DNA of 64,000 nt from Haliotis rufescens (taxonomy: Eukaryota). Positions 333-57,754 of the stretch are shown here, in pieces. How positions within the stretch are numbered: the first letter of the stretch is position 1; every line of letters starts with the position of its first letter. A model generated the notes under the pieces. That model did not search any database. It worked only from the letters and a program-made list of their open reading frames with translations, and was not told where the DNA came from. Made by a program: the position numbers and the translations under genes. The stretch lies in the NCBI RefSeq assembly GCF_023055435.1, contig NW_025964223.1, positions 51,088,001 through 51,152,000 on the forward strand, read 5' to 3'.

Positions 333-3300
333 AACCCAGATGAAAGTACAGTCACCCCTCCACCAGATGGAGGCAAAGGTTGGTTTATCTTATTGGCGGC
401 CTGTCTTCTACTCTCCGCAAGATCCATATATATTATACTTCAGCCAAACTCATTATCAGTTGCGCAAAGTCCCGAAACAACCACACCAGCAGAAAAGACA
501 TCGAGTGTCAACGGGATCTCAGGTCTGCAGTCTACAACGGCCTTTCCCCATGGATCTCCAGCTCGGGGGGCAGGAGGTAAATATAAGCGACGAATCAGTT
601 ATCACAAGAAATCCCTCGTTGTGCGATGTGGATTATTTCATAAGCACGGAACGCTCCCAAATAGTGATGATAACAGGTGTTCGAGAAAGTCTATCCTGCC
701 CTAACGGTGACACCCGTCCCAAACACAAGCAAGCGCAAGTCAGTTGTTCACCGGAAACAACACACGTGAACATATGGTAAAAGTCAAAATAGGGAATTGC
801 ATAATTTTTGTCACAGATGCGTCAAATTTGGAAATGTCCTCTATATGTCTACCATAAAACAGTTCTTTAATACTAGTATCAGATGTATTCTCATGAATAA
901 TATCATTAATGTAACATATCTTAACTTTTGAATAACACTTTCGTAGTGAAGTACAACTTCGAGTATTTGTTGGGGTGGAATCCCATTTGGACACTCTCAG
1001 CCTAAGGCACCTAATCGCCAGCACACAGTCAGCGGTCAAACCCACTCAGCCACAAAAATGGAAGTCCAAAAACTGATAAATGTAAATTGTCACGGCTCGC
1101 ATAGCCGAATGCTATGAACAGTCTAGTATAGAAAGTGGTCAAATGTAACATATTATATATTTTGGATTACACTTTCTTAGCTAATATCGTTAATTATGGC
1201 TGCTTGGATGTAAGAATTAATTTCTTGTTGACCTATTTATCTATAAATCCGAATATGAATATTTCAAAGTAGTTTTCTGCTTAGTTTTTATCCTGAGGCA
1301 GTCCTATGTGATTTAATTTTATAAGATGGTAAGCAGAGAAATAAAATAACATCATCTACCTTGAAACGACACCTCTCTGCGTTAAGATACAGATCGTGTG
1401 AATATATACGGAAATATAACCCATTATTAATTAGTTGCCGTGAATGTATATGTGCAATGTCAACAAGTTATGTGTCCAATTAATGTGAAATGCCAAGGTC
1501 AATATCAAGGCCATTCATGGTACAGTAAACTACGGTTATAACGAACTCAAAGGGACCACTAACTTTAGTTTGTTATAACCGTAGTTCGTTTTAAGCATAT
1601 ATTCAGCATAACTAAAACAAAAGTCGGGACAAAAAAATCAGTTCGTTATATCCGTCAGTTCGTTATAAGCGTGTTCGTTATAAACGTACTTTACTCTAAG
1701 TGGAAAACGTTATAAGAGTGTATGAAGAACGCGTGACTTTGTTATTTAAGTTAGCTTGACACACTGTTTTGGTTGAAGTCATTCGTGCATTGCATCTGGA
1801 ATGTGACACGAACAATCATTTGATTACATACTAATATATTTAAAAGTGACTTTGGTATCAGTGAAGAAAGGATTCCTGTATGATTCTGAGTGAGTGAGTG
1901 AGTTGGGTGTAACGCCGCTTTGAACAGTTTTCCAGTAAACAGTTATATCGCGGCGTGTCAGCTTCATGTGGAAGGAAAGCCCAAAGTGATTCAGCTCTCA
2001 GACGTTTAACAATTTGGTGAAACCCACGAGCACGGGTATGGTGCTGACAAACCCAGTAACATTCGGGGCGAATCGGGATTCGAACTGTATGATTCTGAAT
2101 TTCTTTCATTCTTACAATGCCTATTTCACTCGATTTTGTAGTTATCTTTATCAAGCCAATGGTCATTTTATTGGCAGGCACATGTTTGATAAAGTAAATA
2201 TTAACCAAAAGTAGACGACTGAAAGTTGTCAGTAAGATATATTGTGCCTGATCTTGAAGCGAGGTGAGGTGAAATCGGGTTTAACGTCGCGTCCAAGATT
2301 ATTGCACTTATATAGCGACGTGCATGTACGTGTGTGTGTTTGTGTGGCTGCTTGTACTTGTCCGGACTGATGCCGATTTATAGTGCTAGCACACTGAGAT
2401 ACCATGCCGCAGTTTAACATGAATACCCCACTCAGACACAGTAAACTGACTCCGAGCCGACCAGTCCTTGTTTTAGCCCCTTAATGCCGAGCGCCATACA
2501 GGGTAACAACAAGTACCATCTTTTAACGTCCTTTGGTATGACGCGGCCGGGGATCTGATTTGGAAGTATCCAAATGTCTCCTCTTTCAGTGCCACCATCT
2601 GCAGGACAGCCACAAGGCGTGGGACTACTAGACAATGTCGAGAAGGTACTGATGGTGACAGAACTGATTCAGTTAATGGACAAGTTCAACGCTGGAGATC
2701 ACACTGTTGTTCCTAACATTACCTCGATCCTGTTTGCACTGAACAAAACCAGCGAGGCAGAACAGTTTCTCGAGGCATTCAGGAAACTCCAGGTCCAGAC
2801 CAGCCCTGTTGTAACCACTGTCATTGCCACGAACAACGTCTTCTCATCAGTATTTGGTAACTATGGAAGAAACACGTATTACTGTAACTTACTACTATGA
2901 ACTTTAGTACTCAATAAGCAGGTGCTTGGTCTCGGAAACCGGTATTCCGAACCTCTCTGTACTGGATCTCTCTGTACTTTCCAGTTTTCACGGTTTTAAA
3001 TTCGCATGAGTACATATGCTATTGAAATTCAACACACCCAAATCTGTAGCAATATCCCGATGGAGGGAGCTAACGAATTAGCGTCAAAAAGTGTTCAAAA
3101 ATATAATATTTGTGACCAACCTGAGATAAAGGATCTTATGGGTGAAAAATCACTTTTTGTCTTATTATTTCATTTTAAAAATACAGCGTCTTCGGAACGC
3201 AAAAATACATTTCAATTTTCAATTTATATTTATTACATAGATACATGGCATCAAACATTTGGACTATTTTCCTGCAAAAACCCATTAATAACTTAAATGT

Positions 3301-6300
3301 TTATGTAATAATTGCAGTTTTTAGATTTAATGTCTGATTAACTATGTATGCTGAAATGTTTTTGAATTATGGTTTTATAACATTTAATTTACGAACTAAC
3401 GAGAGAAAAATAAGATGGTTTTTAACAGTACGCCCTCATGCCAATTTAGTTGACGTCCCTCTTTATGACGTCAGAGCGCAGTCGTTTCCCTTTTCTCCTG
3501 GTGGGTCACATATATAAAGAGTGAGTGAGTGAGTTGGGTTTAACGCCGCTTTTAACATTATTCCAGTTATATCGCGGCGTGTCAGCTTAATGTGGGAGGA
3601 AAGCCCGAAGTGATGCAGGTCTTAGACGTTTACCACTTCGATGAAACCCACGAGCACGGGTATGGTGCTGACAAACCTAGAAACATAATCGGGGTGAACC
3701 GGGATTCGAACCCACAATCATAGGTTTATGGCGTGTCAAGGGGACGCAACTCTGCACAGCGAATCGCGGCGCCTTAGACGACTGGGCCACCCGTGCCCCC
3801 ACATATATATATAAAGAAGATATTGATGACAATTTCCTTACATATGCGTCACACTAGGATTTGTAAGATTTATTGCAAATTAAACATCTTAACGAATACA
3901 CGGGGAACTGTTAACGTTACGGCTCTCAAACAATGCATCGGATATGTCACGCCTGCTTTTAATTAAGATGGTCGCAGTAATTGGAATGCTGAAAATGAAC
4001 GGCAAATATGTCACTGTAAAGAATAAAGATACTTCCCTCTTCCGAAAGATTTATGTGGTGTAAGAAGTTTTTTTTGTCATTTACTCGATCCGATCAACGG
4101 TGTTTCGGAAAAATAATCAGGCAGTATTATAGGAGCCAAAGAGAAAGCAATGGCCCATGTGATAAATATACTACTCAAAACAAGTTAAGGATCACACGAT
4201 TCTTTCATATTGGTAATGTTAATCTGTCATGGCACGAGAGATTAACTATTGTAATATGAAATAATCAGGTGATCCTTAACTTCTTTTGAGTAGTATATAA
4301 GGTTTTACCTGATGAAAGCACGACCATCACACTTCTTAATAGACATTTTCTCCTATAGGTGTGTTCAGCAGTACACTGGTAATGCTATTTGGTTATCGTT
4401 GCACGGCGGTGGCGGGAAGTCTAGTCATTGGATGTGGGATATTGGGTACATACTTCTGTGATCACTCGAACATCGCTCTAGTTGCGTTCCTGTATGGTGT
4501 TCTGACAGGTATGTTTCCTTACACTATCTGCTGAAAACAGTAGTCTTGTCTATGGACATATTTAATACTTCACGGATTTGTATATATATTACCTCAAGCA
4601 ACCCGGAAAACCACAAGTGTCACAGACACTTTGTTTCAAATATAAGGCAACAGTAGGGTTCGCACAAAATGCATAGATGGAATAGGGTTAAGTTGACTTT
4701 GGTCAGTTATATGCGGTCGCATTTCACTGCATGACATAAGACCCGTGAAGATACGGGGTTGAATAGATCTTCAGCAACCCATGCTTGCCGTAAAAGGCGA
4801 CTATGCTTGTCATAAGAGGCGACTAACGGGGTCGGGTGACTTGGTTGATGCATGTCATCGTATCCCAATTGCGTGGATCGATGCTCAAGATATTATTCAC
4901 TGGATTGTCTGGTCCACACTCGATTATTTACAGACCGCCGTCATATAGCTGGAATATTGCCGAGTGCGGCTTTAAACAACAAACCAACCAACCAACTTGA
5001 CAAACTTTTGATTCGCGCCACTATTACAACACATATGTAGTGTAGTCACGGGTGTTGGAAGCCGTCAGTATTGCTGAATGCGGCGTTTAACAACACACAA
5101 TGAGGGACGCAGGGCATACAACCCCGTGAAGTATTGACAATGATATTTAATGAACCAGTCGTGTATTTAGCACTGGACCTTTTTAAAAAAATTTAGTCAT
5201 TTTCCCTATTTGTAACCAGTGGATACACCAGAATGAACATCAAGTACAGTCCCCTCCATTATAACCATAATGTTGTCATACGATTGACTCTCTAACTCTT
5301 CGTAAAATCGCAAAAATACATATTTCTGACCTTGATAAGTTGTAATACCAATTGAGGCGTCTGATTTGTTTGTGTGTTGTTTAACGCCGCACTCAGCAAT
5401 ATTCCAGCTATAAAAGAGTCTGGACCAGACAATCCACTGATTGACATCATGAGCATCGGCCCACGCAATTGGGATACGATGACATGTATTAACAAAGTCA
5501 GCGAGCCTGATCACCCACTCCCGTTAGTCTCCTCTTACGACAAGCATAGTCGCCTCTTATTGCAAGAATGGGCTGCTGAAGACCTTTTCAAACCTGGATC
5601 TGTGGCGTCTGAGACAATATGGATACGATTGCAATCTTTCAGCTAGAGGCATTTGGAGCGGCTCGATTGGGTTAAAGATGTTTTCTTTTCTTTCGTGGAA
5701 TGCTGCATTGATGACCATATGCATCATTACAGCAAAGTCGGCATTGCTGAATATCCACTTCTGGTGGTCGCTTCAGTGTATTAATGGCATACATCCAGGT
5801 GATATTGAGGCAGTTCCTTCATAGAATAAGCGTCACGCGAATAATATGTTCAACTTAAATAAAAGCGACAAAACACTTTCCATGTTCACGAGAAATCTCT
5901 GCCAAGAGCAGAGTCGATTGTACGGTTCCTACCCCATCATGAGCATGTGTCTATGAATCAGTATTTAATAGTTTTGGAACGTTCCGAATGTTTTGTCTAT
6001 TAAAGGGACTGTTTTCACGTAGCGTCGTGCGCCGACTCGTGCCTTCCCACGCGGTGACTCGTAGAGGAACAAAGATGGCGTCGGAGACAGAAGCAACGCT
6101 GTTTACGTGAAGCCAATGCCACATTTTGTTTGATAGCATGCAACCCATCAAGATATATCTACACAAACTATTGATTGAAATGTGGAATATTTTCTTCATA
6201 TTGGGATGTATTTTGACGTGTGTGTGAATTCATAGTTCTACTAATGGTGCTGTATGTGGTAGTGTATAAAGCATTGTATTTTGGAAAAGGTTTGCCACAA

Positions 6301-9300
6301 TCGTCATTTAAATGTTGAAAGGAACGTAGTCACACAATGGAGAAACAACACCCCTTCCCACAAGTATACACGTCGGGCATCATGTGTGTCGGGGTACAGG
6401 TGGGTTGGGGTGCGGTGAATTCGTAGACACCTTCAATCCTCCATTTTATGTGAAACGTTTGCGTAAAATAAGGCGCTTATATGGCGAAACGTTATTCAAT
6501 AACGTTACAGCAAAACAGGACGTTCATTAAGCGAATCAAACGCTTTTCAGAAACGGTACAAAAAGTTTTACTCTATTTGAAGCAAAATGTTAGAGTATCC
6601 TACCTCACCAATGGCGCCCGTCACAAACAAGATAATTGGGCAAGATAATTGTTCACTTGAATCGGGAACATTTGTTACAAGTCGAAATAGAGAATTGTAT
6701 CGAAAACCATTTTTGTTCCTGATGTGTAACTTGTGAACTGGATATCATTATCTTTTTTATGACAGGCATTGGACAGAGCATGATCAACGTCTCTGGTCTT
6801 TCGGCCGTTCTGGAGTATTTCAAACGAAAACGGGTTATTGCTCTGATACTGTTGAGTATTGGAAATTTGCTAATGACTCTCTTGGCTGTGCTCCTAATGG
6901 TACTTGTCTTCCCATCTGTGGGTATGGACAACAGCAGATCGTATTTCATCATGCAGTTTGTAATCACTGGCCTCCTCGTCCCAATCAGCTTGATGCTGAA
7001 GCCACTGAACCTAAGGATGAAAGGCTCTGCCGGTAGAAGTCTCATCTCAAGACAGATGGGAATTAAATGTTTTGTGGTCTACAAGAATCCAGCTCTTTAT
7101 ACAGTCACTCTAGCATTTTTCTTCTGGGAAGCAGGTAACATATAACCTGTGTAGATGCATGAGGAGAAAATATGTAGAATTTGATACGGGAAATAGAGAA
7201 TGAGCTTTGACTGTTCATGGGATGAAACATGACTCCTCTAGAGAACAAGAGGACCCTTACACATGCTACACCAAGCCCTATTAAAAATCACATATTCATA
7301 TTCTTATTAGCATCAGAAATATGCAGTCGCTGGTAAGCGTGAATGTAGGTTGGGGTTATCCCCGCTTTGCACAGTATTCCAATAATATCTTGCTGTAGGT
7401 GAAGATATGAGATCAATACAAACCATAATAATGTCATTATGATACTGACAGATTTAGACACTGAGGCAACCAGCAAATGCAAATTAAACCACTGGGCTAT
7501 CCGACCCGTGAAGATCCGGGATAGAATAGGTCTTCAGTAACCCATGCTTGCCGTAAAAGGCGACTATGCTTGTCGTAAAAGGCGACTAACGGGATCGGGT
7601 GGTCACACTCGCTGACTTGGTTGATACATGTCATCGATCTCAATTGCGTGAATCGATGCTCATGATGTCAGTCTCTGGATATTGTGGTTTTAGACTCGTT
7701 TATTTTGCAGACCGCCGTCATAAAGCTGGAACATTGCTTAGTGCGGCGTTAAACAACAAACAAACAAACTCTGGGCTATCCTCGTCCTACGTAATAAAAG
7801 ACGAATAGCATATATTATTTGAGTTCATAAATTTGAAAACGTCATTTGATTACATACATGTGTATGTTTTATAATTTCTTGTCGAATGTTTTTATATATG
7901 GTTTCAAGGTTTCGCCATCATCAACAAGAAGCTGCCTGGCTTTAAAGGGTTGATATCCATCCCTAATATGCCCGATGGAATGCTGCTGACCCTAATTCTA
8001 AGCGTCGCATTGATGTTGGGCATTGGGATCGCATGCTTCTTCATCAAGACCACCCGGCTCAGGACGACCATCATCATATTCTGTGTAAACTGCGTCATCA
8101 TCTGTTTCTTCAGTGTCCTGGCTAGTCAGTTGTACAAGGAGATCTACGCTACTGTGTATTCCGCAGTGGTCGGTCTGTTCAAGGGTGAGAATATATGCAA
8201 GTATATACATGTATCTACCCACGCGTAGTGTTCAGTGGTAGGAGTGGGGTGGTATCTTGTGATATTGTAGAGGTCTAGGAACTTAGTTGTACAAGGAGAT
8301 CTACGCTACTGTGTATTCCGCAGTGGTCGGTCTGTTCAAGGGTGAGAATATATACAAGTATATACATGTATCTACCCACGCGTAGTGTTCAATGGTAGGA
8401 GTGGGGTGGTATCTTGTGATATTGTAGAGGTCTTAGAACTTAGTTGTACAAGGAGATCTACGCTACTGTGTATTCCGCAGTGGTCGGTCTGTTCAAGGGT
8501 GAGAATATATACAAGTATATACATGTATCTACCCACGCGTAGTGTTCAATGGTAGGAGTGGGGTGGTATCTTGTGATATTGTAGAGGTCTTGGAACTTAG
8601 TTGTACAAGGAGATCTACGCTACTGTGTATTCCGCAGTGGTCGGTCTGTTCAAGGGTGAGAATATATGCAAGTATATACATGTATCTACCCACGCGTATT
8701 GGTCAGTGGTAGGAGTGGGGTGGTATCTTGTGATATTGTAGAGGTCTTGGAACTTAAGGTGAGGTGAGGTGAAATGGGGTTTAACGTCGCGTCCAAGATT
8801 ATTGCACTTATATAGCGACGTGCATGCATGTGTATGTGTGTGTGTGTGGCTGCTTGTACTAGTCCGTGCTGATGCCGATTTATAGTGCTAGCACACTAAG
8901 ATACCATGCCGCAGTTTAACATAATATACTGTCTCCGAGCCGAGCAGTCCTTGTTTTAGCTCCTTAATCCCTTAATGCCGAGCGCGAGACAGGGTAACAA
9001 CAAGTACCATCTTTTAACTTCTTTTGGTATGACGCGGCTGGGGATCGAACCCCGGACCTTCCGCTCTCCGGGCGGACGCTCTACCATTAGACCACGGTGG
9101 CGGTCGTCTTGGAACTAAGTCGAGCGTAACTAATCTTCAATCCATGAGAATATGACATGCCATTCATGCTGCCATTCTGTAACGACGCTGGAAAAAGATT
9201 GAAATATTGTTAAACTGCCCAAATAATAATACTTATATGCATAATTAAAAAACAATAAACATTTATTCCACGTCCCTCCTCATTGCACGAGTCATGGGTT

Positions 9301-11343
9301 AATGACCCTCGACTCCCATAGCAGTGATATACTCAGATCATATATCCAAGTTGCATTTTACAGTCGAGAACTGCAAAATCTCTTCTCTTTTCAAGGGTTT
9401 ACAGATCCGGTGATGCTGTTCACCGTCCCCGTGTTTGTTGGGGAAACCAACGTGGCCATCGGCATTGGCATGGTAACAGTGGGACAGGGCCTTGGATCAT
9501 TCATCCTGCCTTACCTTGCAGGTTGGTGTAAGCAAAAAAGGCCACTGAACATTTGTGTTTACTGTAAAATACGCTTAAATATTTACCTTTATTTAACGTC
9601 ATCCAGTGCAAATAGAACCACGTCCCTCCATGTACAGAGGGTTAGCCTTGTGATTAAAGCGTTGGCTCGTCACGCCGAGGACCCGGGTTTGATTCTCGAC
9701 ATGTGTTCAATGAGGCCTATTTTTTGTTCTTGGTATCATTTGAGAATTGCTTGAAGCTGATTTCACACCTGACTCACTTTGTTTTCAGATAATAAACCGC
9801 CTAGGACGTTGACAATATAACATGATCTCGTTCAGTAGTCAGGAATTTGTTATCACTACCCTCTTCCCACTTCATATTGGTTTGTTAGATCAGTATGAAT
9901 TATAAAACCCTGAGGTAACCTCGCATACATACTACCAGTACATGTATGTCATCGACGTCTTTGGTGTGATTATTGTGATATCTCTGCCTTGGTGAAATAC
10001 CTTCTATTACGAATTCTGACCCCCTCACATCATGTGCAAAACAAACGGATTTCAAATTAATATATTGACATTCATCAATCAATGGCGTGTCAGTTTAATG
10101 TAGGAGGAAAGCACAAAGGGATGCAGATCTTAGACGTTTACCACTTCGGTGAAACCCACGAGCACGTGTATGGTACTGGCAAACCTAGAAACATAATCGG
10201 GGCGAACGGGTATTCGAACCCACGATCATAGGTTTCTGGCGTGCCCAAGGGACGCAACTATGCACAGCGAATTGCGGTGCCTGAGACGACTGGGCCACCT
10301 GTGCTCCTCTTTATATTTATGTGGCATTTATGAATCTTTGGTAACAAGAAGTCAGAAATACTTGACATCAATTTATGGTATTCTTTGAAAGCGGCGTTTC
10401 GGAACAGCGGCGTTTCGGAACAGATGCTGGTGCTTTTACCAAACAAATAATCAATATCTGAGTTGGACATGGTTATGTAGCTAAAAATCAAATACACGGA
10501 AATTAGAAAAAAACACAAACTAAAAAGGGTGACAAAATGGTGATAGAGGAGGCTTGTAACAGCAAGGAGGCTGATGTACTCTCTAGTATAACCCCATGAG
10601 GATTCTGTGACAGAACATGGCCATGAACATACTGCTTGTCGTAAGAGGCGAGTCAAGATGATGGGGGCGTCGTTTTCGTGTCATTATGCCCTGAGGAGAC
10701 AATTGCTCATGCTGTCAGACACTCGTTGATTTGACACATACATGATTATATGCAGGCCCTCGTCAGAACTCTGGTATAATCCAAACTGAATTGATAACAA
10801 GAATCACTTACTCATTCATTACTCCGACACGGGCGATCCGCTCCCCTCCCACGTCTCCACCCTTCCTCCCAAATACTGTAAGCCTGATGTTCAAAAACAA
10901 AGCAGCCCTTGCCCTGAAATCGTTTATTGCAGTAAGGTCCAACTTACAAAATGCCATTATGACAGTCGTCCACTTCTGTATATGCTTACATCTCACGGTA
11001 AATTGTATACCATTATTTTTTATCAGATGAGATCGACAGAAGAACAAAGAAACTCGACCTGTGTTTCTATCTGGTGGGCGGTTTGTATCTGTTGGCTTCT
11101 GCAGCTATGCTTCTGACCTACGTCTTACACAAACGGGCAAAGGTTGAAGATTCAACTGCAAGGAAATCTGATGAAAAGGTCGAGGACCATCAACAACCAA
11201 CCAGCTCTCCAACCGAAATCAAAGATGGAGACACATCCTCTCATGAAAAGGGTAATGAACCGTCCCCTTCAAATAATCATGCAGAGGACGCGAATTTACA
11301 AATATTTACCGTATACAATTCGGACATTGAACAAGAGAGATAA
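333..11343 (+). CDS. SLC16/monocarboxylate-transporter-like MFS protein, copy A (5'-partial, 7 exons in window, 582 aa visible)
   Basis: Exons 333-576, 2590-2856, 4359-4508, 6766-7134, 7909-8184, 9396-9521, 11027-11343. All introns are GT-AG and phase 1; total 1749 nt in frame to TAA. Shows the SLC16 N-terminal motif PPPDGGKGW, the TM2-3 loop LFGYRCTAVAGS, the TM4-5 motif YFKRKRVIAL and about 12 hydrophobic segments. In-frame stop at 282-284 and no ATG before 333, so the start exon is upstream of the window. Confidence 0.88.
690..875 (-). mobile_element. Penelope-like element 3' fragment
   Basis: Minus-strand FYGRHIEDISKFDASVTKIMQFP matches FSGRHVEVIFKCKAPVTKMMQFP of the element at 35620-36500; the flanking GCACCCGTC-type motif is also shared. 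Confidence 0.55.
1523..1696. mobile_element. MITE, Tc1/mariner-pogo type
   Basis: TA-flanked, imperfect TIRs CAGTAAACTACGGTTATAACGAAC / GTTCGTTATAAACGTACTTTACTC, with internal GTTCGTTATA subrepeats. Confidence 0.65.
1888..2095 (-). mobile_element. SINE family D copy (5'-truncated)
   Basis: (GAGT)n tail on + and body matching 3518-3800. Confidence 0.75.
2261..2556 (-). mobile_element. SINE family C copy (5'-truncated)
   Basis: (GAGGT)n tail on + and body matching 8757-9105; ends about 33 bp before exon 2590. Confidence 0.85.
3518..3800 (-). mobile_element. SINE family D, full length (tRNA-like head, V-domain-like core)
   Basis: Minus strand: A box TGGCCCAGTCG, B box GGTTCGAATCC, core CTTTCCTCCCAC, (ACTC)n tail; flanked by a CACATATA..TAAAGA target-site duplication. 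Confidence 0.88.
4171..4293. mobile_element. Fold-back MITE (about 123 bp), TA-flanked
   Basis: TIR CTACTCAAAACAAGTTAAGGATCAC / GTGATCCTTAACTTCTTTTGAGTAG; second copy at 59736-59857. Confidence 0.8.
4740..4996 (+). mobile_element. SINE-like family A copy
   Basis: Starts GACCCGTGAAG and ends (CAAC)n; small internal deletion. Confidence 0.85.
5364..5602 (-). mobile_element. SINE-like family A copy (diverged)
   Basis: Reverse complement of the family A body and tail. Confidence 0.75.
7503..7770 (+). mobile_element. SINE-like family A, full length
   Basis: GACCCGTGAAG start; TSD CTGGGCTATCC at 7492-7502 and 7771-7781. Confidence 0.9.
8128..8755 (+). repeat. 4 x 157-bp tandem repeat spanning the exon 5 / intron 5 junction of copy A
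   Basis: Units start at 8128, 8285, 8442 and 8599; each holds the last 57 nt of the exon and the GTGAG donor. Confidence 0.95.
8757..9105 (-). mobile_element. SINE family C, full length (tRNA-derived head, Meta/RUDI-like core)
   Basis: Minus strand: TGGTCTAATGG A box, GGTTCGATCCCC B box, core GTCATACCAAAAGAAGTTAAAAGATGGTACTTG; TSD GTCTTGGAACT(T)AAG. The core assignment is from recalled similarity and is unverified. Confidence 0.85.
10085..10305 (-). mobile_element. SINE family D copy (tail missing)
   Basis: Matches the head and core of 3518-3800. Confidence 0.8.
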
Positions 11344-13366: not shown

Positions 13367-13400
13367 CCATCCATCCATCCATCCATCCATCCATCCATCC
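13367..13400. repeat. (CCAT)n microsatellite
   Basis: About 8 tandem CCAT units. Confidence 0.9.
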
Positions 13401-15500: not shown

Positions 15501-15642
15501 AGGTTTTGGGGATGCATTTTTACCTTATAACAGTACGCACACAGGGAATTGGGCAATGTTTTCCTTGTCGGGAAATGGATCCATGATATTGCTTGGTGAA
15601 ATGCCCACGTGATGGCGATCGATACCGCTTAACTTACGAATG

Positions 15643-34000: not shown

Positions 34001-34335
34001 TCCACTGCTGTGTAGTAGAATGTCATCACCTGACGATAAAGAGTGAATCGTGTTGACTAATGCTCGTCAGTTGTAATGCAATATCTACCACCGTTGGTTT
34101 CCCACAATGAAGTATCTTCCTGCCTTATGTTGCAGATGAAATCGAAAACTCGATGAAAAAAGTTGACGGATGTTTCTACTTCGCTGGGGTTATCTTCTTC
34201 CTCTCAGCTTCCTTCATCATCTTCTCCTACCGCCTACACCTGCGTGTGACGACATTGGTGGTAACCATGGACCACCCAGATGAAAAGTCCACTCAGGAAC
34301 CACAGTGCAGTGGGGTTGACATGGAAAAATTCTGA
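25086..34335 (+). CDS. SLC16/monocarboxylate-transporter-like MFS protein, copy C (7 coding exons, 482 aa)
   Basis: Exons 25086-25142 (MSGHEDKDHDPPGTSKEAE), 28402-28687 (DPRDGGKAW), 31643-31792, 32050-32412 (LRRRRLVAL), 32744-33010, 33219-33344, 34136-34335. GT-AG sites, 1449 nt, open to TGA. An extra in-frame ATG at 25068 is not conserved in copy D. Confidence 0.88.
25880..26085. repeat. Degenerate ~21-bp minisatellite (AATTGTAATAA core)
   Basis: Repeated (G/A)AATTGTAA(T/C)AA motifs at about 20-25 bp spacing; continues after the SINE at 26360-26410. Confidence 0.55.
26170..26337 (-). mobile_element. SINE family B copy
   Basis: (GAGT)n on + and reverse complement of the family B body. Confidence 0.8.
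27938..28105 (-). mobile_element. SINE family B copy
   Basis: Contains GGGAATCGAACCCGGG (B box on minus strand). Confidence 0.85.
29652..29827 (-). mobile_element. SINE family B copy
   Basis: TSD GGCTTTCTGTAG on both sides. Confidence 0.85.
30130..30875 (-). mobile_element. MULE/Mutator-like transposase relic in intron 2 of copy C
   Basis: Minus-strand KVQTHGLAEDYRDDPEVEKWIRRASVLP and WNHHETFGPRTNNSLE; RTNNxxE is typical of MULE transposases. Frameshifted. Confidence 0.65.
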
Positions 34336-46685: not shown

Positions 46686-46717
<32 letters not shown>

Positions 46718-46747
46718 ACATGAGTCTTTATCTCAGATAATTGTCAT

Positions 46748-46815
<68 letters not shown>

Positions 46816-49800
46816 ATGAGTCTTTCTCTCAGATAATTGTCATCATTGTAAAAGAAATAGTCTAAGTTACCAGAAGTCGTGGGCGTAGCTTTCACCTTTT
46901 GCAATTGTACAAGCAATTTGGAAACATGGATTGCGAAGACATTTTACGATGACGATCTGGGTATCAGTTCCCATAACTGTGCTTGTAGACCTCTGCCACT
47001 TGGTCGGCATTTTCCCGAATATGAGATAGTTTACTTTATTTAGTGGGCGGTTGGTTTGTTGTTTAACGCCGCACTCAGCAATATTCCAGCTATATGACGG
47101 TGGTCTGTAAATAATTTAGTCCGAACCTGACAATCCAGTGATTAATATCATGAGTATCGATCCACACAATTGAAATCGATGACATGCATCAACCAAGTCA
47201 GCGAGCCTGACCACCCGATCCCGTTATTCGACTCTTACGACAAGCATAGTCGCCTTTTGCGGCAAGCATGGATTGCTGAAGACCTATTCTACCCCGGATC
47301 TTCACGGGTCCCAACATGACGGAAAGTGTCCATACCTTGCTGTGTATCACTGTGACTACATTTCTTAACGAAATAACAGGCAGACTCTAAAGAAACGTGA
47401 TGCCTCATTCACTGGGTTCTGGCACTAGCCTGATTAGACACAGCGACGATTGACCGCGGGAACCAGCTAAGATGCCCAACAGACGGGAGTAGCCTCCCTT
47501 TGATAAAGGGAAATAACTCAAACCGGAGGTCCGATTGATTACCGCGAAAGGTGATCATTGACATTGTGTGTAGGCAATTGTGTTTTTGCCTACAAGGTTG
47601 TTAGGCTACTGCCTAAAAACCAGTTTCAGTTGAAACTACATTGTCTGTTGTCACTGTCCAATTGACTAAGCGCTGACCTTTTGACGCAATATATTAATCG
47701 CACATTCCAGGAAAACTTGCAATTGTGAGGAACCGTTTGTAATGATAGAATTTAAGCATAACATTATGTGATAAAGAGGTTGTAGATTTGTGAGTTTTGG
47801 GATGATAAATATCCTCTATGAGGAGTGAGTGAGTATTGCTTTACGTCGCTTTAAGCAATATTCCAGCAACATCACAACGGGGGACACCAGAAATGAGCTT
47901 CACACATTGTACCCATGTCGGGAATCGAACCCGGGTCGTCGGCGTGACAAGCGAACGCTATAACCACTAGGCTCACAAAACGTTCTCCCATTACACTGTT
48001 TATTCATAATACATTACGCAAGTAAACAACATCAAACAAACATGCATGATACATGACACTAGCCATCCAAATTCACACTCAAGTGATAACCGCTGTGCAT
48101 TAATATGAGTAATATTGGTTGGGACCTATGTTGAACCCAGTCGGCAAAACCCTTGACTAGTTTCTTCTCCTGGCCCACACTTAACGCAGGTGGGGCCATG
48201 TGTACATGCTGGCGCGGACGGTGGAGCAATTACTAACATCAAAAGATGAAGATATGTACACTGACGACGTTTTATTTCATTCACTGGCTTGATAACAATT
48301 TAAGAACTTCCAAAGAAACGTTGCTGACAATAGAACAAGGGGTTGATATCACTATACTCACAACTTACGTGTTTGTTCGCCGTTCATTTGGAACCATGTT
48401 GAACATTTATGAAATATGGTTTGTGAATATTTGTTACAATCACCAATTGTGATTAGGACAGATAAGTTTAACTCATTTTATGTAAGTGAGATATGTAGAT
48501 ATTTGTTACGTTTTTTCACTGTTTTAATTGCTTACATTGCCCAATATTTTTCGGCGCATCAAGTTTCCTGCCTTGGACCTACTTGCACAAAGTGATCTTA
48601 TCACTAAGACGATCGCAACTCCCTTTAATTTAACACTGATTTACGGCCGCCGTAGCTCCAAGGTCGCTTTTCAATACGGCGATAAACACAACTCACTCAC
48701 CCACTATCACAGTTCAGAACAACAGTAAATAACGACAAAACCTTTCCAACTAAATATGTCGCTGAAGTAGATTTTTAATGTTTCATCACAAATGCGTGTG
48801 ATTGCTTAATGCTTGTGCATACACAACAAGATTAACTATCAGTAGCAACGCATTAGTGATTCCATTTGATAGCTGTGATGCAGATTTAATTTTGTAACGA
48901 GCTTTACATTATACTAGTTCCACAGACAAACGCATCTAACCGTTATGGGTAGATTCAACCTTTCATGTCCTAACCGCGTGTATTAGCGGGTTCTTCTATG
49001 ATGTTCTGTAATGTCAGCAATTACTGGGGTGATAAACGTCATTGAGAGGACCCCACCCTTCACTCCCAGAACCGAGTGGACGGCCTGTGACTACTCTGTG
49101 ATATGGGGTATTGTTGTGTGTAGTCATTTCCATCCATTGTGACCCTGGGGAAGAATTAGATCGCCAATTGACCCCGAGCAGACAAAAGGGGATTGTTCGA
49201 TGGAGTTGATCGTCCCTCATTTCTGTAATCGACCGCCTACGTGGTCTAGTGGTAGATCGTCCGCCCGGAGAGCGGAAGGTCCGGGGTTCTATCCCCGGCC
49301 GCGTCTTACCAAAATACGTTGAAAGATGGTACATGTTGTTACCCTGTCTGGCGCTCGGCATAAAGGGGCTAAAACAAGGACTGGTCAGTATACTGTGTCT
49401 GAGCGGGGTATCCATGTTAAACTGCGGCATGGTATCTCAGTGAGCTAGCTATAAATCGGCATTAGTCGGACTAGTACAAGCGGCCACACACACACACACA
49501 CGTGCATCCACGTCGCAATATAGGTGCAATAATCTTGGACGCGACGTTAAGCACAATTTCACCTCAATTCACCATTTCTGTAATCTCTCGTGTGCCATTA
49601 TGTGCAGGCCGCGCTTACACAACTGGAAGACTCATTGTTGAAGCGTTGACAATGTACTGATCGGGTGGTCACCATTTCTGTAATCTCTCGTGTGCCATTA
49701 TGTGCAGGCCGCGCTTACACAGCTGGAAGACTCATTGTTGAAGCATTGACTATGTACTGATCGGGTGGTCAGGCTCGCTGACTTGGTTGATGCATGTCAT

Positions 49801-52800
49801 CGTATTTCAATTGCGTGGATCGATGCTCAAGATGGCAATCACTGGATTGTCTGGTCCAGACTCGATTATTTACAGACCGTCGTCGTTTTGCCTGACTCTT
49901 ACTGAGTGCGGTGTTAAACAACAAACAAACTCAAACTGTATCTCCTTGTGAAAGTTTCTTCCATATTTCAGGAATTTACCATGGACTACGGAACTGGGCA
50001 AGAACTGACCATCCCGACAGCCGATGCGATTGTAGATCCCCCTGATGGGGGAAAGGCATGGTGCTTAGTATTCTTTTCGCTGATTTTAGCATCTTTGACG
50101 GAAGCATTCATCGTTCTTCAGCAGCCGACTCTATTTTTGATGAAAAGTGCAAATATCTCATCTGGACAGAGCCAGGGGTTATTTTTACCTACCTTAGATT
50201 CTCTGTCAGCCGAAGCAAGAACAGTACTGGACACTTACAAGGCTCTGTTTTCCATATCAGGTATGCCATGAAAATAAATAATTAAATCAAAGTATATGCA
50301 TGGTCATTTTCAATCATCATTTATTCCGTTCAGACCAGCTATTGTTCTAGGAGAGGTATTATAATAGGGTGTGTTACATTACTCAAGCGACTTGCGACCC
50401 CAAGCTGAGTGCGGCGTAAAAAAACAGACAAACAACATTTAAATCCTGCAGTTTTTGAACAATAATTCAAACGCCTGTTGGTGTAAGAACGTTTATGCTT
50501 GACAGTGATCTGAATCTTCTTGTTAAGTCTATGTGAGTCAACGCAACGTTGCCGAAAGTCGAAGAACAACTTTAGTTTCTCTGTCACAATTATTGAATCT
50601 CATAAAATTAATTTAGCATTTAATTCTTTGGCTATGCCAATCACGTCTCCAACAATGTTTCCATACAATGTAACGTAAAAGGACAATAGAGCGTAGTATG
50701 TATGAGAATTGTTACCGTTTCTTGCAGTATAGGGAAGGTTTTGCTTTAATAGTTTTAAACCTGGTCATGTATTTTATGTTTTCGTTACCCCACCAACTAT
50801 TTAGCGAGCACTTAAAACAATAATGTTAAGCAATTATATTTGTATGAAAGGCCTTAGTTAATTGTTGCATGTGTTTGATCAATTTTCTTTTTTATCAATC
50901 CCGTTAAAGGAATACTTAGCGGCACTCTGACAGTCTTGATTGGTTACCGGTGGGTGGCGCTGATAGGAAGTGTTCTGACGGCCGTGGGATATCTCGGAGC
51001 CGCGTTTAGTGATCTTTCCAATGTCCATCTCATCTCCTTCCTATACGGGGCACTGCCAGGTTAGCTCTGTCCAATGGTATGTCAGTAGAGACTGCAACCT
51101 GAGCTTTACTTAATCATAATCGTTTTTTTGATTTTGACAATTGCAAAACATCTTTTTTGATCAGCTGATAACATGAAACTGACATGCCGAATTAAGTTTT
51201 AGCACGGTTGTGGAATTAAAATACAGGCCACACATATGCACATTTGAAGTGAATATAGATGTCACTTTTTTATTTTCCTTCAAAGTCAAGCTGGTAGGTC
51301 GTGAAATAACTGAAATGTCGTTCACAGTGGCGTGAAACCAAACTAACTAACTCACTCACAATGTTCTCAAACGTAATCAAAGATCAGCTGATCGGGTCAT
51401 TAATTAATATATTCTGTTGAGCTGAAAATGCTAAGATCGACTATAAGAAAGTTAAGACAGTCCTCTTATCATATTTCAGGTATGGGTCATAACCTGGTCG
51501 TAGTAGCATACATCACGGCAATACTGCAGTATTTTAGAAGGCGCCGACTGGTGGCTCTACTCATCCCTCATGTTGGTGTCATCCTGGGATCTATGGCTTT
51601 TTCCATTATGTCATTTCTCCTTTTTGGATCCCTTGGCATCAACAGCTGGAAAAGTTATCTGATATTTCAAGCGGGTGCTGCTGCTGTTATGATCCCGACT
51701 AGCCTTTTTCTGAAACCCCTCAATGCACGGATGAAAGGCCAAGCCAATCAAAGCCTAATATCTTATATGATGGGTATGGATGAACTGAAGGTCTTCCGAT
51801 CAACTCTGCTCTACGTCTTCGCTGCGGTCTGTTGCCTGTGGGGCGGAGGTAGGAAATAACGAACACCGAAAATATTCTGATAAAGAGAGAGAACCATACC
51901 GACAAAGAATTAGTAATATATACGTGGTGTTTATTTGTAGTTTTGAAATTTTGTGTTTTCAACAATAAACTTGTCTACTTTGAAATGAGTATTTGTCTTT
52001 GCGACAGCCTTTAATACTATCCCCCAAATTCTTGTTTCTGTAATGCCCAACCAAAAGACATCCCACCAAATTATAAATATCTCCACCCTACATTAAGGCA
52101 TTTCTCTTGGAACGTCTAATGTTTTCCCCTTGACACTTTGCATTGTCAGCCCATCACGTCCACCGACCTGCTTACTGAACTGTGTCTCCAGGAAAAATCA
52201 CGACAATTGGATAGATTTTAAAACACAGAATTACAATTGATCAACCAAGTTGTTTTCTATTTGAAGGTATCAGTGTCATTGAGGCCAAACTACCGAGTTT
52301 CAAGGGTCTACTCTGGTTCCTGCCCGCTGGACAGTTGTTGGTATACATCATATTGCTGGCCAGTCTCGTGGGCACGTGCTGCTCGTGCTGTATCTCCAGT
52401 AATATCCGTCTGAGGAGTGTGGTCATTGCGATGGTCGTCTTCAGTGGCATCCTGTTCCTCCTCAACATGATGGCCAGTCTGTTGTATGACTTCATCTATG
52501 CCATCTGCTATTCCATACTAGTCGGAGTGATAAAAGGTATAGAATCCATGTGAGGTCAATAGAGGTCTGTGTAATTATATAGGTTGTCGGGGGCACATAT
52601 GGCTCATTTGTCTAAAGCGTCGGAATTCCAGTAGAGTTTCAAGTCAATTAATCAAGCCAGAATCCTGATAATGGTAAACGCCCTGATTATGAACATATGT
52701 GTGACAGTACCATACTTGGGCTGGGTATACCCAAATGGCATTACTTAAAATTAAGACGTGCGTCACTTTGAGTGTCCGCCCGGGCATACTGTTCAAACCC

Positions 52801-55800
52801 AACACAATCACTCTCTCGCAGAACTTTGAGGCTAGCATTTGAGTGTTGTATCTTTGTTAAGCGAATATCAATCAATCAATGGAATCTTGAATTTTGCATC
52901 TGTTGTAAGTTTAACCAGTATTTAATAACCACCACATGAGCGTCTATGTACAATTGACATCTATCAACATTCACCATATACCATAACATTTGGTTTAACA
53001 CCGAGATGGTTCCTACAAGCATATCTGTGAATCTTCTCAGTAGCATCTGTATTTTTGAATCCCCACATTTCGGCTGCATACATCGAACTTGGGCTAATTG
53101 TAGTGTCAAAAAATGTGAAAAATATACTATAAGTTACATTCCCAAGTTGCTTAAGGTTTTGAAAAATGTCAATGAAAATATTCATAGCTTGTAAAGAAGC
53201 CTTATGAATATGCATAGACCATGACAATCTGTAAGTAAAATAGACACCAAGGTATTTATTCAGAGTAATGACTTGTAGAGGTTATCCTCTGTAAAACTAT
53301 TTTTCTCTTCGCGATAATCTGTCACTACGTTTAAACACAACTACTTCTGTCTTTTTTTAAAGTCACAGACGGTTTCCATTTATCGCAGTAGGATTCAAGT
53401 TCAAATATGTGTTTTTTTGTAATCCGGGCGTTGTACTTGAAAACATTACTGTGTTTCAGGGTGTACCTGTATACCACCTGCACAATTCGCCTTGATTTGC
53501 TCTGCTCATTCATTTATAAAGAAAGAAAAGAGAAAAGGACTTATGATACATCCTTAGCGAACACCAATATTACAAGCAGACGTATCTGTCACAGACCTTA
53601 TTACATTATGGTAGATACAGCACAATAATAACCCGTTTTTGATACCAGGTCCATACGTTTTAAATAGCTTCAGAGTTTATCTCTATGACGAGAGTAAAAT
53701 CTTTTCGCAAAATCTACAAATAAGGCATATAATTTGCCACCCTTTCTTGTTAGATATCTGTGTATTATTGTCTGTAAAATTAACGTTATCAGTTGTGCTA
53801 TATGTTTGTCTAAATCCAGATTGTGTCATGTTGAATTTTTCAAATGTGTCAGCTCAAAGCATAAAAACGTGAATATGATATCTGTAAACAGTTTGAGATA
53901 TGGAATCAGTATGTCTGATGACGTTTTGAACTTTATCCGCACCTGATGTCTTATAATTCTTTAAGTGATTAATACTGTCACAAATTTCTTTCATGGTAAT
54001 TGGAGATTCGAGAATGTCTGTTGTCACTTCATTAGAATTATTATCATCGAAATTGATCGTGCCCAAATCATCTTCGTTTCTTTAATACAAATTAGAGAAA
54101 AATCTTTTCTGTGGTTGTCTATTTGAACTGAGAATTTTTACAGTAGGCCAAAACTGTTTAGAATTGATAATTCTCTACTCCAGAACTTATTGTATATGTT
54201 TGTAATATTCATCTTTCTTTTTCCTACACATATCATTGTAGGTTTGTAGCTATTCATTGATTCAATATAATTCAATGTCTTTATACCTGCTAAACTTATT
54301 TAAACAATTGGCATTCACTATCAAACCATAACTGATGTGGTCTCTTTTTGCAATTACTCGCATAAGGCATCTGTGATGTATCTAATGCCTTCATCGATGT
54401 TATCAAATGCTGTGTCAACTCTCTTCTCCGGTAAATCTTGGACCATGTAAGAAAATAAGTTATCTCTAAACTAATCAGCCTTACTGTCTACCCAAACAAA
54501 TTTGAATGAAGTGTTTTTGCAATGTCTGATTAATCATTCATTAAGTTCGTGAAGCGTACGTAATCCAATGGTGACTGGAAGATGTGACGACTCGGTGCGA
54601 GAAGGTATTTTAAAACTTTCACATTTAACCAAACAAATCAGTTGAACTGATTACGAAGTCAACCACACTGGCGCCCTGGTATCCTTTAAAGGTGAAATCG
54701 CCAATACCGGTGTCTGTACCACATCTTTCAGCGAATATCATAAAATAACAACATTGCACAGATGTGTGTCGCCTCCTAGCCGTGCCAGAATCAGTTAATT
54801 AGGGTTCGAATCCAATCAAAAGCACGAAGATGACCTTAATCCTGTTATCACATATCCTGTCACTCTGTTACGCTGGCTCGCCGTGGGTGAGGCAGCCGTT
54901 GGCTTATCGCGCCGTGATACAACTGAAGTACTGTTCGCCGTGGGTGAGACAGCCGTTGGCTTATCGCGCCGTGATACAACTGAAGTACTATTCGCCATGG
55001 GTGAGACAGCCGTTGGCTTATCGCGCCGTGATACAACTGAATTACTGTTCGCCGTGGTCGAGACAGCCGTTGGCTTATCGCGCCGTGATACAACTGAAGT
55101 ACTGTTCGCCGTGGGTGAGACAGCCGTTGGCTTATCGCGCCGTGATACAACTGAAGTACTGTTCGTAGAGGGTGGGGAAACCATTGGCTCGCCGTGGGTG
55201 AGACTGCCGTTGGCTTATCGCGCCGTGATACAACTGAAGTACTGTTCGTAGTGGGTGGGGAAACCATTGGCTCGCCGTGGGTGAGGCAGCCGTTGGCTTA
55301 TCGCGCCGTGATACAACTGAAGTACTGTTCGCCGTGGGTGAGACAGGCGTTGGCTTATCGCGCCGTGATACAACTGAAGTACTGTTCGCCATGGGTGAGA
55401 CAGCCGTTGGCTTATCGCGCCGTGATACAACTGAAGTACTGTTCGCCGTGGGTGAGACAGCCGTTGGCTTATCGCGCCGTGATACAACTGAAGTACTGTT
55501 CGTAGAGGGTGGGGAAACCATTGGCTCGCCGTGGGTGAGACTGCCGTTGGCTTATCGCGCCGTGATACAACTGAAGTACTGTTCGTAGTGGGTGGGGAAA
55601 CCATTGGCTCGCCGTGGGTGAGGCAGCCGTTGGCTTATCGCGCCGTGATACAACTGAAGTACTGTTCGCCGTGGGTGAGACAGGCGTTGGCTTATCGCGC
55701 CGTGATACAACTGACGTACTGTTCGCCATGGGTGAGACAGCCGTTGGCTTATCGCGCCGTGATACAACTGAATTACTGTTCGCCGTGGTCGAGACAGCCG

Positions 55801-57754
55801 TTGGCTTATCGCGCCGTGATACAACTGAAGTACTGTTCGTAGAGGGTTGGGAAACCATTGGCTCGCCGTGGATGAGGCAGCCGTTGGTTTATCGCGCCGT
55901 GATACAACTGAAGTACTGTTCGCCGTGGGTGAGACAGCCGTTGGCTTATCGCGCCGTGATACAACTGAAGTACTGTTCGCCATGGGTGAGACAGCCGTTG
56001 GCTTATCGCGCCGTGATACAACTGAAGTACTGTTCGCCGTGGGTGAGACAGCCGTTGGCTTATCGCGCCGTGATACAACTGAAGTACTGTTCGTAGAGGG
56101 TGGGGAAACCATTGGCTCGCCGTGGGTGAGACTGCCGTTGGCTTATCGCGCCGTGATACAACTGAAGTACTGTTCGTAGTGGGTGGGGAAACCATTGGCT
56201 CGCCGTGGGTGAGGCAGCCGTTGGCTTATCGCGCCGTGATACAACTGAAGTACTGTTCGCCGTGGGTGAGACAGGCGTTGGCTTATCGCGCCGTGATACA
56301 ACTGAAGTACTGTTCGCCATGGGTGAGACAGCCGTTGGCTTATCGCGCCGTGATACAACTGAATTACTGTTCGCCGTGGTCGAGACAGCCGTTGGCTTAT
56401 CGCGCCGTGATACAACTGAAGTACTGTTCGCCATGGGTGAGACAGCCGTTGGCTTATCGCGCAGTGATACAACTGAATTACTGTTCGCCGTGGTCGAGAC
56501 AGCCGTTGGCTTATCGCGCCGTGATACAACTGAAGTACTGTTCGCCATGGGTGAGACAGCCGTTGGCTCGTTAGCTGGGTTGGACTCCCCACAAGGGTAC
56601 AATATGGAAATCCCATAGTTTCATTCCCATTATATGTCAGGAATAGTGATAGAACGGACTTAAGTCCCGCTCACTTACTCACTGCCATGTACGGTTTTAA
56701 ACCAAACTCTAGCATTACATTCCTCATCATGGCGAACATCATCATCATGAAATAGGACAGGAAGAAATCCCCCCTTTATTACTAATGCTAGCGTGTTTCG
56801 TCATCAATTGAATGGTTGAAAACAAAACTAACCCCTGCTTGTTGTTGCTACGTTGAAGGCCTAGGGGAACCCATGCTGGAGTATCTGATTCCGCTGCTTC
56901 TCGGGGAGAACAACGCTGCCATCGGTGCAGGCATCTTGACCTTTGGCCAGGGCATTGGAAGCCTGTCGATGCCAGCCATTGCCAGTAAGCACATCATTAC
57001 GACTCACATTTGGAGAGTTGCTTTATGGTATTACTGTGTAACCTATAAATGTGTTTACGATTGAACTAAGTGTTCGGTCAATAATTTACTACGTTAATTT
57101 TGTATCAATTATTGATTCATTGATTACTCGTCAATCTGGAGTTCACTGTCGAAATTGCCTGACAAACGACGTAATGCCTGTGATAACCTCAATAATCCGG
57201 ATCCTGTCTACACCGAATTGGGTTGTTCATGGGAACTGGAGTTTGATGGGTTGGAATTGTTTTGAAATAAACTTGTTCCGGAAAATGCTGGAAAATAAGA
57301 AAAGACACACACGATATTAAATGGCCGGGCCGTTTCCTCGATCGATCGTTTAAGATTTCATAACCTCAATGCCTATATCGCAATTTATGTGTCAAACTTC
57401 AGATTGATTAAGCGTTAACCAGATTTCACTGTTGGTTAAAGTAGAACAGTTAACCTATGTCAACAGCCGTAAAGTAGAATGTCATCACACAGTAAATAAA
57501 TATCTAAGCACCGTTGGTGTTTCCAGAATGATGTATTTTCCTTTTATGTTGCAGATGAAATCGAAAAATCGATAAAAAAAGTTGACGGATGTTTCTACTT
57601 CGCTGGGGTGATCTTCTTCCTCTCAGCTTCTTTCATAATCTGGACCTACCGCTTACACTTGCGTGTGACCAAACGGACAGTAAGCCCATGTGACCCAGAC
57701 GAAAAGCCCACGCAGGAAACAGAGTGCAGTGGGATGGACATGGAAAGATTCTGA
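44975..57754 (+). CDS. SLC16/monocarboxylate-transporter-like MFS protein, copy D (7 coding exons, 488 aa)
   Basis: Exons 44975-45037 (MSGHEDKDQCPPGTSEEAGAE), 49972-50260 (DPPDGGKAW), 50910-51059, 51480-51848 (YFRRRRLVAL), 52267-52536, 56859-56984, 57555-57754. GT-AG sites, 1467 nt, open to TGA, exon-for-exon paralogue of copy C. Confidence 0.88.
45163..45388 (-). mobile_element. SINE-like family A (diverged)
   Basis: Reverse complement of the family A body. Confidence 0.7.
46282..46437 (+). mobile_element. SINE family B copy
   Basis: Flanked by a CTCCAATAAC duplication. Confidence 0.85.
46690..46846. repeat. Two (TG)n tracts, each followed by the same ~33-bp sequence
   Basis: (TG)n-TACATGAGTCTTT(A/C)TCTCAGATAATTGTCATCA occurs twice in tandem. 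Confidence 0.9.
47047..47310 (-). mobile_element. SINE-like family A, full length
   Basis: Ends on + with CTTCACGGGTC. Confidence 0.88.
47822..47973 (-). mobile_element. SINE family B copy
   Basis: B box and (ACTC)n tail on the minus strand. Confidence 0.85.
49231..49572 (+). mobile_element. SINE family C, full length
   Basis: TSD CATTTCTGTAATC. Confidence 0.88.
49571..49770 (+). repeat. 100-bp tandem duplication
   Basis: Units start at 49571 and 49671. Confidence 0.9.
49759..49930 (+). mobile_element. SINE-like family A (5'-truncated)
   Basis: Runs from GATCGGGTGGTCAGG to the (CAAA)n tail, about 40 bp before exon 49972. Confidence 0.85.
52665..54750 (-). mobile_element. Decayed non-LTR retrotransposon (LINE ORF2 pieces, RTEX-like) in intron 5 of copy D
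   Basis: Minus-strand APE end (GDFTF..GASVVDFVI, SSHLPV), pre-RT LESPITMKEICDSINHLKNYKTSGAD, post-RT MYAAEMWGF..EKIH..LGVKPNVMVYGEC. RT core largely deleted; absent from the 208-bp paralogous intron of copy C. Confidence 0.8.
54874..56568. repeat. 57-bp minisatellite (about 26.5 units) with seven 26-bp inserts and higher-order structure
   Basis: Unit CGCCGTGGGTGAGACAGCCGTTGGCTTATCGCGCCGTGATACAACTGAAGTACTGTT; inserts CGTAG(A/T)GGGTGGGGAAACCATTGGCT start at 55164, 55247, 55501, 55584, 55838, 56092 and 56175. Confidence 0.95.

What the first reader, a model, noticed from the sequence alone, without database searches (positions are those of the whole stretch)
333..57754. Tandem family of SLC16-like transporters lacking the canonical proton-coupling residues and differing in intramembrane charges
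Seen: three intact paralogues keep the SLC16 scaffold motifs (PDGGxxW, YFxxxR), but predicted TM8 has no Asp/Arg pair (A: MLLTLILSVALMLGIGIACF; C: LVNIILLASLLGTCFSC; D: LVYIILLASLVGTCCSC). Charged residues in other helices differ at aligned positions: TM1 R (A, RSIYIILQP) vs E (C/D, EA[L/F]IVLQQP); TM7 E/D/G (WEAG, WDGG, WGGG); TM10 D/K/E (FTDP, LGKP, LGEP). The TM6-TM7 loop is only about 25 aa. Established: human MCT1 uses TM1 Lys38 and TM8 Asp309/Arg313 for H+-coupled monocarboxylate transport. Inference: this may be a lineage-specific SLC16 offshoot with new, paralogue-specific substrates or a sensor (transceptor) role.
Basis: partly seen in the sequence, partly recalled or inferred. Interest (0 to 1): 0.7.

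Follow-up and report, generated by a model that had tools for sequence, protein, structure and literature searches.

The report
Abalone transporters with relocated binding charge
Three neighbouring abalone genes encode relatives of the lactate and thyroid-hormone carriers that have lost the arginine most of the family keeps for gripping cargo and carry a lysine at the predicted neighbouring position, so they likely move a different small molecule, probably without a proton.

Summary
The window holds three open SLC16-like genes (A, C, D) and one pseudogene (B). Lacking the K38/D309/R313 triad is ordinary: none of the SLC16-like relatives scored outside this clade has it. Loss of the TM8 Arg is unusual: 66 of 71 other SLC16-like exons of this genome keep it, while 0 of 27 members of a mollusc-wide clade that contains these genes do. 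Best reading: facilitated carriers of a small zwitterion or anion whose positive anchor moved from TM8 to TM10, with acids in TM1, TM7 and TM10 tuning the pocket. Corrections: the TM1 R and E are one residue out of register, C lacks both quoted motifs, the short loop resembles MCT8, A has an overlooked extra 100-residue extracellular insert, and the clade is not abalone-specific. Substrate, expression and contacts are untested; a splice-donor bias may help keep the Lys.

The parts
333..11343 (+). Gene A, coding exons 2-8: 333-576, 2590-2856, 4359-4508, 6766-7134, 7909-8184, 9396-9521, 11027-11343. First coding exon (38 codons) lies outside the window at G000:C445:51085346-51085459. Product 620 aa (P0001).
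2590..2856 (+). A-only exon; with the 3' part of the previous exon it makes an extracellular TM1-TM2 insert about 100 aa longer than in C/D: a low-confidence Ser/Thr/Pro/Gly stretch, then three predicted helices with two N-glycosylation sequons
7974..8060 (+). TM8 of A, no Asp or Arg in the helix core (Leu at the MCT1 D309 column, Ile at R313)
8181..8183 (+). A TM10 Lys473 (AAG), MCT1 F367 / MCT8 D424 position; Asp477 follows one turn later at the S371 position
8128..8756 (+). 157-bp tandem repeat, 4 copies, each holding the 3' end of A's TM8-TM10 exon and its splice donor; the extra copies examined begin behind an in-frame stop
20778..21919 (+). Pseudogene B: TM2-TM4 exon 20778-21169 interrupted by a common dispersed repeat (about 20916-21144); next exon 21559-21919 with a frameshift near 21795; no match found for the TM1 exon or the last three exons
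25086..34335 (+). RDGG and RLRRRR in place of the family motifs, 2-aa deletion after TM5
33007..33009 (+). C TM10 Lys352 (AAA); Glu269 at the MCT8 Y339 position in TM7, Asp262 in TM7, Lys356 at the S371 position (numbered from the ATG at 28411)
44975..57754 (+). Gene D, coding exons 44975-45037, 49972-50260, 50910-51059, 51480-51848, 52267-52536, 56859-56984, 57555-57754 (488 aa by hand count; 464 from the ATG at 49981)
52533..52535 (+). D TM10 Lys356 (AAA); Glu272 at the MCT8 Y339 position, Glu360 at the S371 position, Glu41 at the MCT1 Y34 position (numbered from the ATG at 49981)

Best explanation
A, C and D are tandem abalone members of a mollusc-wide, divergent SLC16-like clade without the TM8 arginine, and they likely work as facilitated (not proton-driven) carriers of a small zwitterion or organic anion, with the TM10 lysine predicted to take over the lost arginine's role as the positive anchor. 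Shown: open frames, 12-helix predicted fold closest to MCT8, uncharged TM8, Lys at the F367/D424 column, clade membership. Inferred: that the Lys amine fills the space of the lost guanidinium (in MCT8 the residue at this position forms a salt bridge with that Arg); that in C/D it pairs with the TM7 Glu at the Y339 position and in A with the Asp one turn later; that the surplus acids (TM1, TM7, TM10) hold an amino or ammonium group, as expected for an osmolyte or amino-acid derivative such as taurine, betaine or glycine (substrate list is my inference from recalled molluscan physiology). A and the C/D type probably differ in substrate range; B is dead and C looks relaxed.
For: Fold: model pLDDT 79.8, 12 membrane helices; best matches MCT8 Z 45.1, rmsd 2.7 over 380 residues, best non-SLC16 row Z 39.1. 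Register: the Lys lies between two glycines that match MCT1 G364/G368 and MCT8's D424 motif. [quoted passage not shown] Counts: Arg at 313 in 66 of 71 other exons of this genome and 64 of 80 outside relatives, 0 of 27 in the clade (one Lys); base at 367 in 0 of 71, 1 of 80 (P0055, which itself lacks the Arg) and 14 of 27 (10 of 10 abalone). 21 of 27 clade members have a base at 367, 370, 371 or 374 against 10 of 80 outside. The Lys survives between A and C/D at 33-37% identity with a synonymous change (AAG/AAA). C versus D dN/dS 0.44 (bootstrap 0.33-0.60), 0.35 in the C-half. Precedents: MCT12 has Asn at 313 and carries zwitterionic creatine (PMC9982067); MCT7 lacks D309 and carries taurine independent of pH (PMC8980330).
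Against: Only 4 of 17 non-abalone clade members (all scallops) have the Lys; the nearest relative (Gigantopelta, P0015) has Thr there and a Lys in TM7 instead, and some members have no base at any scored TM10 site (6 of 27). The Lys is the last whole codon before a phase-1 intron, where the recalled donor consensus favours A-rich codons. The 27 sequences are related, not independent. No RNA contig joined any exon pair in the rows shown, RefSeq models split D at the TM4 intron in this species and others, and no protein record for this species' C was returned. No substrate evidence exists.
Confidence: 0.5

Rival explanations
1. Relaxed duplicates: A is the working gene, and the charge differences in C and D are drift in copies on their way to loss; the Lys is kept partly by the splice donor.
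For: B is already broken; C lost two family motifs and two residues; dN/dS 0.44 is high for a transporter; TM1 charges shift between orthologues; RefSeq splits D; no spliced RNA seen; molluscs hold 54-75 SLC16 genes with tandem arrays (PMC9679248; PMC11939762).
Against: dN/dS interval excludes 1; full-length C/D-type proteins exist in H. rubra and N-terminal parts in H. asinina; the likely D orthologue in H. rubra keeps D's TM7 Gly plus TM10 Glu, and A keeps its TM7 acid and TM10 Asp in 4 of 4 species; the Lys codon differs at the donor -2 base in A.
Confidence: 0.22
2. Rewired proton coupling: the Asp/Arg switch of TM8 has been rebuilt as a Lys(TM10)-Glu(TM7) or Lys-Asp(i+4) pair, so these are still H+/anion symporters.
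For: C/D-type proteins put Glu and Lys at the two positions that are H-bonded in MCT8; A has Lys and Asp one turn apart, like D309/R313; a TM7 acid at 273/274 occurs in 16 of 27 clade members against 2 of 80 outside.
Against: No K38 equivalent in A, C or D, which MCT1 needs at neutral pH (PMC9982067); the acidic partner differs between paralogues; MCT8's pair at these positions is structural, and MCT8 is recalled as not proton-coupled.
Confidence: 0.18
3. Sensor (transceptor) or non-transporting scaffold, A's extracellular insert acting as a binding domain.
For: A has a helical, glycosylated insert, a long Cys-containing insert at the same place in P0015, and loss of the family's main substrate Arg.
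Against: The insert matches nothing and is not alignable between A and P0015; C/D lack it; cytoplasmic tails are short or low-complexity; the 12-helix core and pocket charges are kept; I know no SLC16 precedent (recalled).
Confidence: 0.1

Closest known systems
Human MCT8 / MCT10 (SLC16A2 / SLC16A10)
   Same: Best structural and sequence match among solved structures; no Asp at the 309 column; short TM6-TM7 loop; charged residue at the TM10 367 column.
   Different: MCT8 keeps the TM8 Arg (R371) and has Asp at TM10 and Tyr at TM7; here the Arg is gone, TM10 has Lys and TM7 has Glu (C/D) or Asn/Ser (A types). About 18% identity.
Human MCT12 (SLC16A12) and MCT7 (SLC16A6)
   Same: Working analogues: MCT12 lacks the 313 Arg and carries creatine; MCT7 lacks D309 and carries taurine without pH dependence (passages).
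   Different: No sequences of these were compared here; a TM10 Lys is not reported for them in the passages read.
Human MCT1-4 proton/monocarboxylate symporters
   Same: Fold, PDGG and YF..R motifs in A and D, intron positions (human ones recalled; abalone ones tested).
   Different: None of K38, D309, R313; F367 is Lys; S371 is Asp, Lys or Glu.
Expanded molluscan SLC16/MCT families (oyster, razor clam, abalone)
   Same: Tandem expansion and orphan status are already described; this genome gave 106 matches to the MCT model.
   Different: Those exons mostly keep the Arg (66 of 71) and have no intron in TM7 or TM10; the passages read do not describe an Arg-less clade or pocket residues.

Membership tests
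Major facilitator superfamily | 12 membrane helices in two six-helix bundles; MFS_1 profile match | tested here: met
   MFS_1 above cut-off for P0001 (55.4 bits vs 33.4); 12 helices in the model
SLC16 (MCT) family | Nearest characterised relatives by sequence and structure are SLC16 proteins | tested here: met
   All 11 solved-structure hits of the 8-sequence profile are MCTs; top 14 VIA rows are MCT8, MCT2, MCT1 or the bacterial MCT homologue
SLC16 (MCT) family | Motifs before TM1 (PDGG.W) and before TM5 (YF..R) | tested here: inconclusive
   Present in A and D, degenerate in C
SLC16 (MCT) family | Shared intron positions | tested here: met
   The TM4 acceptor falls at the same phase-1 site in 47 of 49 aligned other loci (23 of 72 not aligned) and the post-TM11 donor in 63 of 64 (8 not aligned)
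SLC16 (MCT) family | Score above the curated MCT model cut-off (TIGR00892) | tested here: inconclusive
   48.5 bits vs 586, but no match in this genome passes the cut-off either
SLC16 (MCT) family | Nesting among named SLC16 members in a rooted tree | not tested
   Trees held no named human SLC16 and no non-SLC16 root
Proton-coupled MCT1-4 subgroup | TM1 Lys38 | tested here: not met
   Ile in A, Val in C and D
Proton-coupled MCT1-4 subgroup | TM8 Asp309/Arg313 salt bridge | tested here: not met
   Leu/Ile in A, Ser/Thr in C and D; helix core uncharged
Proton-coupled MCT1-4 subgroup | H+/monocarboxylate symport | not testable with these tools
   needs a transport assay
MCT8/MCT10 subgroup | Y339-D424-R371 network | tested here: not met
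   Glu or Asn, Lys, and Thr or Ile at these columns
Transceptors | Signalling on ligand binding, independent of flux | not testable with these tools
   no sequence feature tested here bears on it directly

The most novel reading that the evidence does not exclude
A mollusc-wide SLC16 clade discarded the family's TM8 Asp/Arg switch and rebuilt the pocket repeatedly by placing a base on other pocket helices; in abalone a TM10 Lys with a TM7 Glu or TM10 Asp forms a new protonatable salt bridge, a natural relocation of the proton-coupling switch onto the helices that carry MCT8's structural network.
Probability: 0.18. Interest if true: 0.7.

Novelty: new variant of a known kind. Interest (0 to 1): 0.45.

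Why it matters
The TM8 Arg is the most constant pocket residue of the family. A natural clade without it, with a base at the neighbouring TM10 site, is a ready-made test of whether an SLC16 anion anchor can be moved between helices, and gives a mutant design for MCT1 (R313 neutral plus F367K). It also warns that automatic names such as 'monocarboxylate transporter 1/4/12/13-like', given to these orthologues, say nothing about substrate. The effect is limited to transporter specialists until a substrate is found.

Tried and rejected
Pfam scans of single exons gave almost nothing (1 weak MFS_1 hit among 16). The first fold with 8 sequences failed (pLDDT 35) and was not used. RNA: no RNA holder listed; laying 4 runs on D and 4 on A was swamped by repeats, showed only short unspliced pieces (one 183-base piece in a D exon, one 151-base piece across an A exon end), no exon-exon joint among the rows shown, most rows not shown; this is no evidence either way on expression. 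The dN/dS rows for B used a wrong frame and are discarded. The GT counts at the TM7 and TM10 columns are confounded by Gly codons and were not used. The automatic first-exon join printed nothing (offset error); C and D full lengths are hand counts from the printed sequence. A search of the own genome by alignment was not possible, so further clade members elsewhere in the genome were sought only with one D exon (5 matches, all in this cluster, 41 candidates scored). A's insert found no relative. Literature: searches and earlier-finding look-ups returned nothing that describes an Arg-less molluscan clade; subscription papers and all supplements were not seen. Rejected: 'missing proton triad is remarkable' (0 outside relatives have it; D309 in 6 of 80, K38 in 4 of 100); 'TM1 R versus E charge swap' (out of register); 'abalone-specific'. 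No complex prediction was run.
Full report
Gene anatomy. The quoted motifs were found on the + strand. C and D are 80% identical, A is 33-37% identical to them. A's model equals the last 582 residues of P0001, labelled Haliotis rufescens, and D's ends with P0008. The first coding exons lie further upstream: about 2.65 kb before the window for A, at 25086 for C and 44975 for D. Between A and C lies pseudogene B, with a repeat inserted in one exon, a frameshift in the next and no match for the other exons. A has an extra exon (2590-2856) that lengthens the extracellular TM1-TM2 loop by about 100 residues; the model predicts a disordered stretch and three helices there, with two glycosylation sequons.

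Family. The proteins pass the MFS_1 cut-off. All 11 solved-structure hits of the 8-sequence abalone profile are MCTs. A model of A built on 115 sequences (pLDDT 79.8) matches MCT8 best (Z 45.1, rmsd 2.7 over 380 residues; best non-SLC16 row 39.1); the alignment was mostly ordinary SLC16 proteins, so this is not independent. Two intron positions are shared with other SLC16-like loci of this genome (47 of 49 and 63 of 64 aligned). In trees the genes fall in a long-branch clade (FastTree 1.0 on 111 of 132 sequences; ultrafast bootstrap 100 on a 45-sequence subset). The clade members whose labels I looked up are all gastropods or bivalves, apart from one unlabelled record. The trees have no named human sequence and no root.

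Using the profile alignments to MCT1 and MCT8: TM8 has Leu/Ile (A) or Ser/Thr (C, D) at 309/313 and no charge in its core. The TM10 D/K/E site is S371, the TM7 E/D/G site is F274. The TM1 Arg of A is at 33 and the Glu of C/D at 34; position 34 is Asp or Glu in 45 of 100 outside relatives, so that Glu is ordinary. The TM1 Arg is replaced by Thr in A of H. rubra and H. asinina, which have an Arg four residues later. C lacks both quoted motifs. The loop is short but close to MCT8's.

What is and is not unusual. Among 80 outside relatives with TM8 and TM10 aligned (of 121), Asp at 309 occurs in 6, Arg at 313 in 64 and Lys in 6; Lys at 38 occurs in 4 of 100; none has the triad. Among 71 of 72 other SLC16-like exons fetched from this genome, Asp is in 22 and Arg in 66; these were picked by likeness to the MCT model and so lean to ordinary members. 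In the clade 0 of 27 have the Arg and one has Lys. So loss of proton-coupling residues is common, and loss of the Arg is the clade's mark.

The overlooked Lys. All 10 abalone sequences have Lys at the F367 column, between two conserved glycines; so do 4 scallop proteins, against 0 of 71 other abalone exons and a single Arg among 80 outside relatives, in a hemichordate protein that also lacks the TM8 Arg. In MCT8 this position is D424, which bridges Y339 of TM7 and R371 of TM8 (PMC12078798, passages); in MCT1 F367 and S371 lie next to the substrate and F367 sets affinity (PMC13265630, passages). C/D-type proteins have Glu at the Y339 position (6 of 6), A has Asp one turn after the Lys (4 of 4). 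Other clade members place a base at 370 or 374 of TM10, or in TM7 (P0015); 21 of 27 have one at 367, 370, 371 or 374, against 10 of 80 outside. Against this: related sequences are not independent, 13 of 17 non-abalone members lack the Lys, and its codon abuts a splice donor whose recalled consensus favours such codons, although A differs from C/D at the synonymous base.

Selection and expression. C versus D gives dN/dS 0.44 (0.33-0.60), lower in the C-half: purifying but relaxed. The likely D orthologue of H. rubra (P0007) shares D's TM7 Gly and TM10 Glu. RefSeq splits D at the TM4 intron and no record for this species' C was returned; RNA contigs gave no usable evidence.

Mechanism. Most likely (0.5) these are facilitated carriers of a small zwitterion or anion, the TM10 Lys serving as the positive anchor and the acids holding an amino group; MCT12 (Asn at 313, creatine) and MCT7 (no D309, taurine) are the working precedents (PMC9982067, passages; PMC8980330, passage). 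Rivals: relaxed duplicates (0.22), rebuilt proton coupling (0.18), sensor (0.1). Fold, residues and clade are shown; contacts, coupling and substrate are inferred.

Prior knowledge. Tandem expansion of SLC16 genes in molluscs, including abalone, is published (PMC12627906, PMC9679248, PMC11939762; passages only). PMC4067591 (passages) supports the MCT8 salt bridge; PMC11727788 (passages) was not relevant. My searches found no description of an Arg-less clade; supplements were not read and could hold trees that include these genes. Verdict: a real, new variant of a known family, of moderate interest (0.45).

Noticed in passing
window 8128-8756: Four 157-bp tandem copies of the end of A's TM8-TM10 exon with its donor; use of a later donor would bring in a stop. 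It resembles the splice-site minisatellites noted in earlier finding e1-9896261.
   Followed up: partly
L002 and L004, about 15.6 kb and 31.8 kb upstream of the window: Two long single-exon ORFs (760 and 851 aa, opposite strands) that start with leucine-rich-repeat-like sequence; they look like Toll-like receptors (by eye; not scanned).
   Followed up: no
window 54874-56570: 57-bp minisatellite with higher-order 337-bp period, inside D's intron between the two TM10 exons.
   Followed up: no
window 14462-15628: Broken Tc1/Tc3-type transposase (HTH_Tnp_Tc3_2, E 2.4e-7).
   Followed up: partly
window 41130-43636: Run of broken ORFs between C and D that look by eye like a tyrosine-recombinase retroelement remnant; no Pfam match.
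   Followed up: partly
G000 contig C605 (loci L012-L080): Most of the 106 matches to the MCT model lie on one contig in arrays; 22 of 71 scored exons have Asp at 309 together with a mostly kept Arg, so possible proton-coupled members exist there.
   Followed up: partly
P0055 (Ptychodera flava): Outside the clade, lacks the TM8 Arg and has Arg at the F367 column: a possible independent case of the same shift.
   Followed up: no
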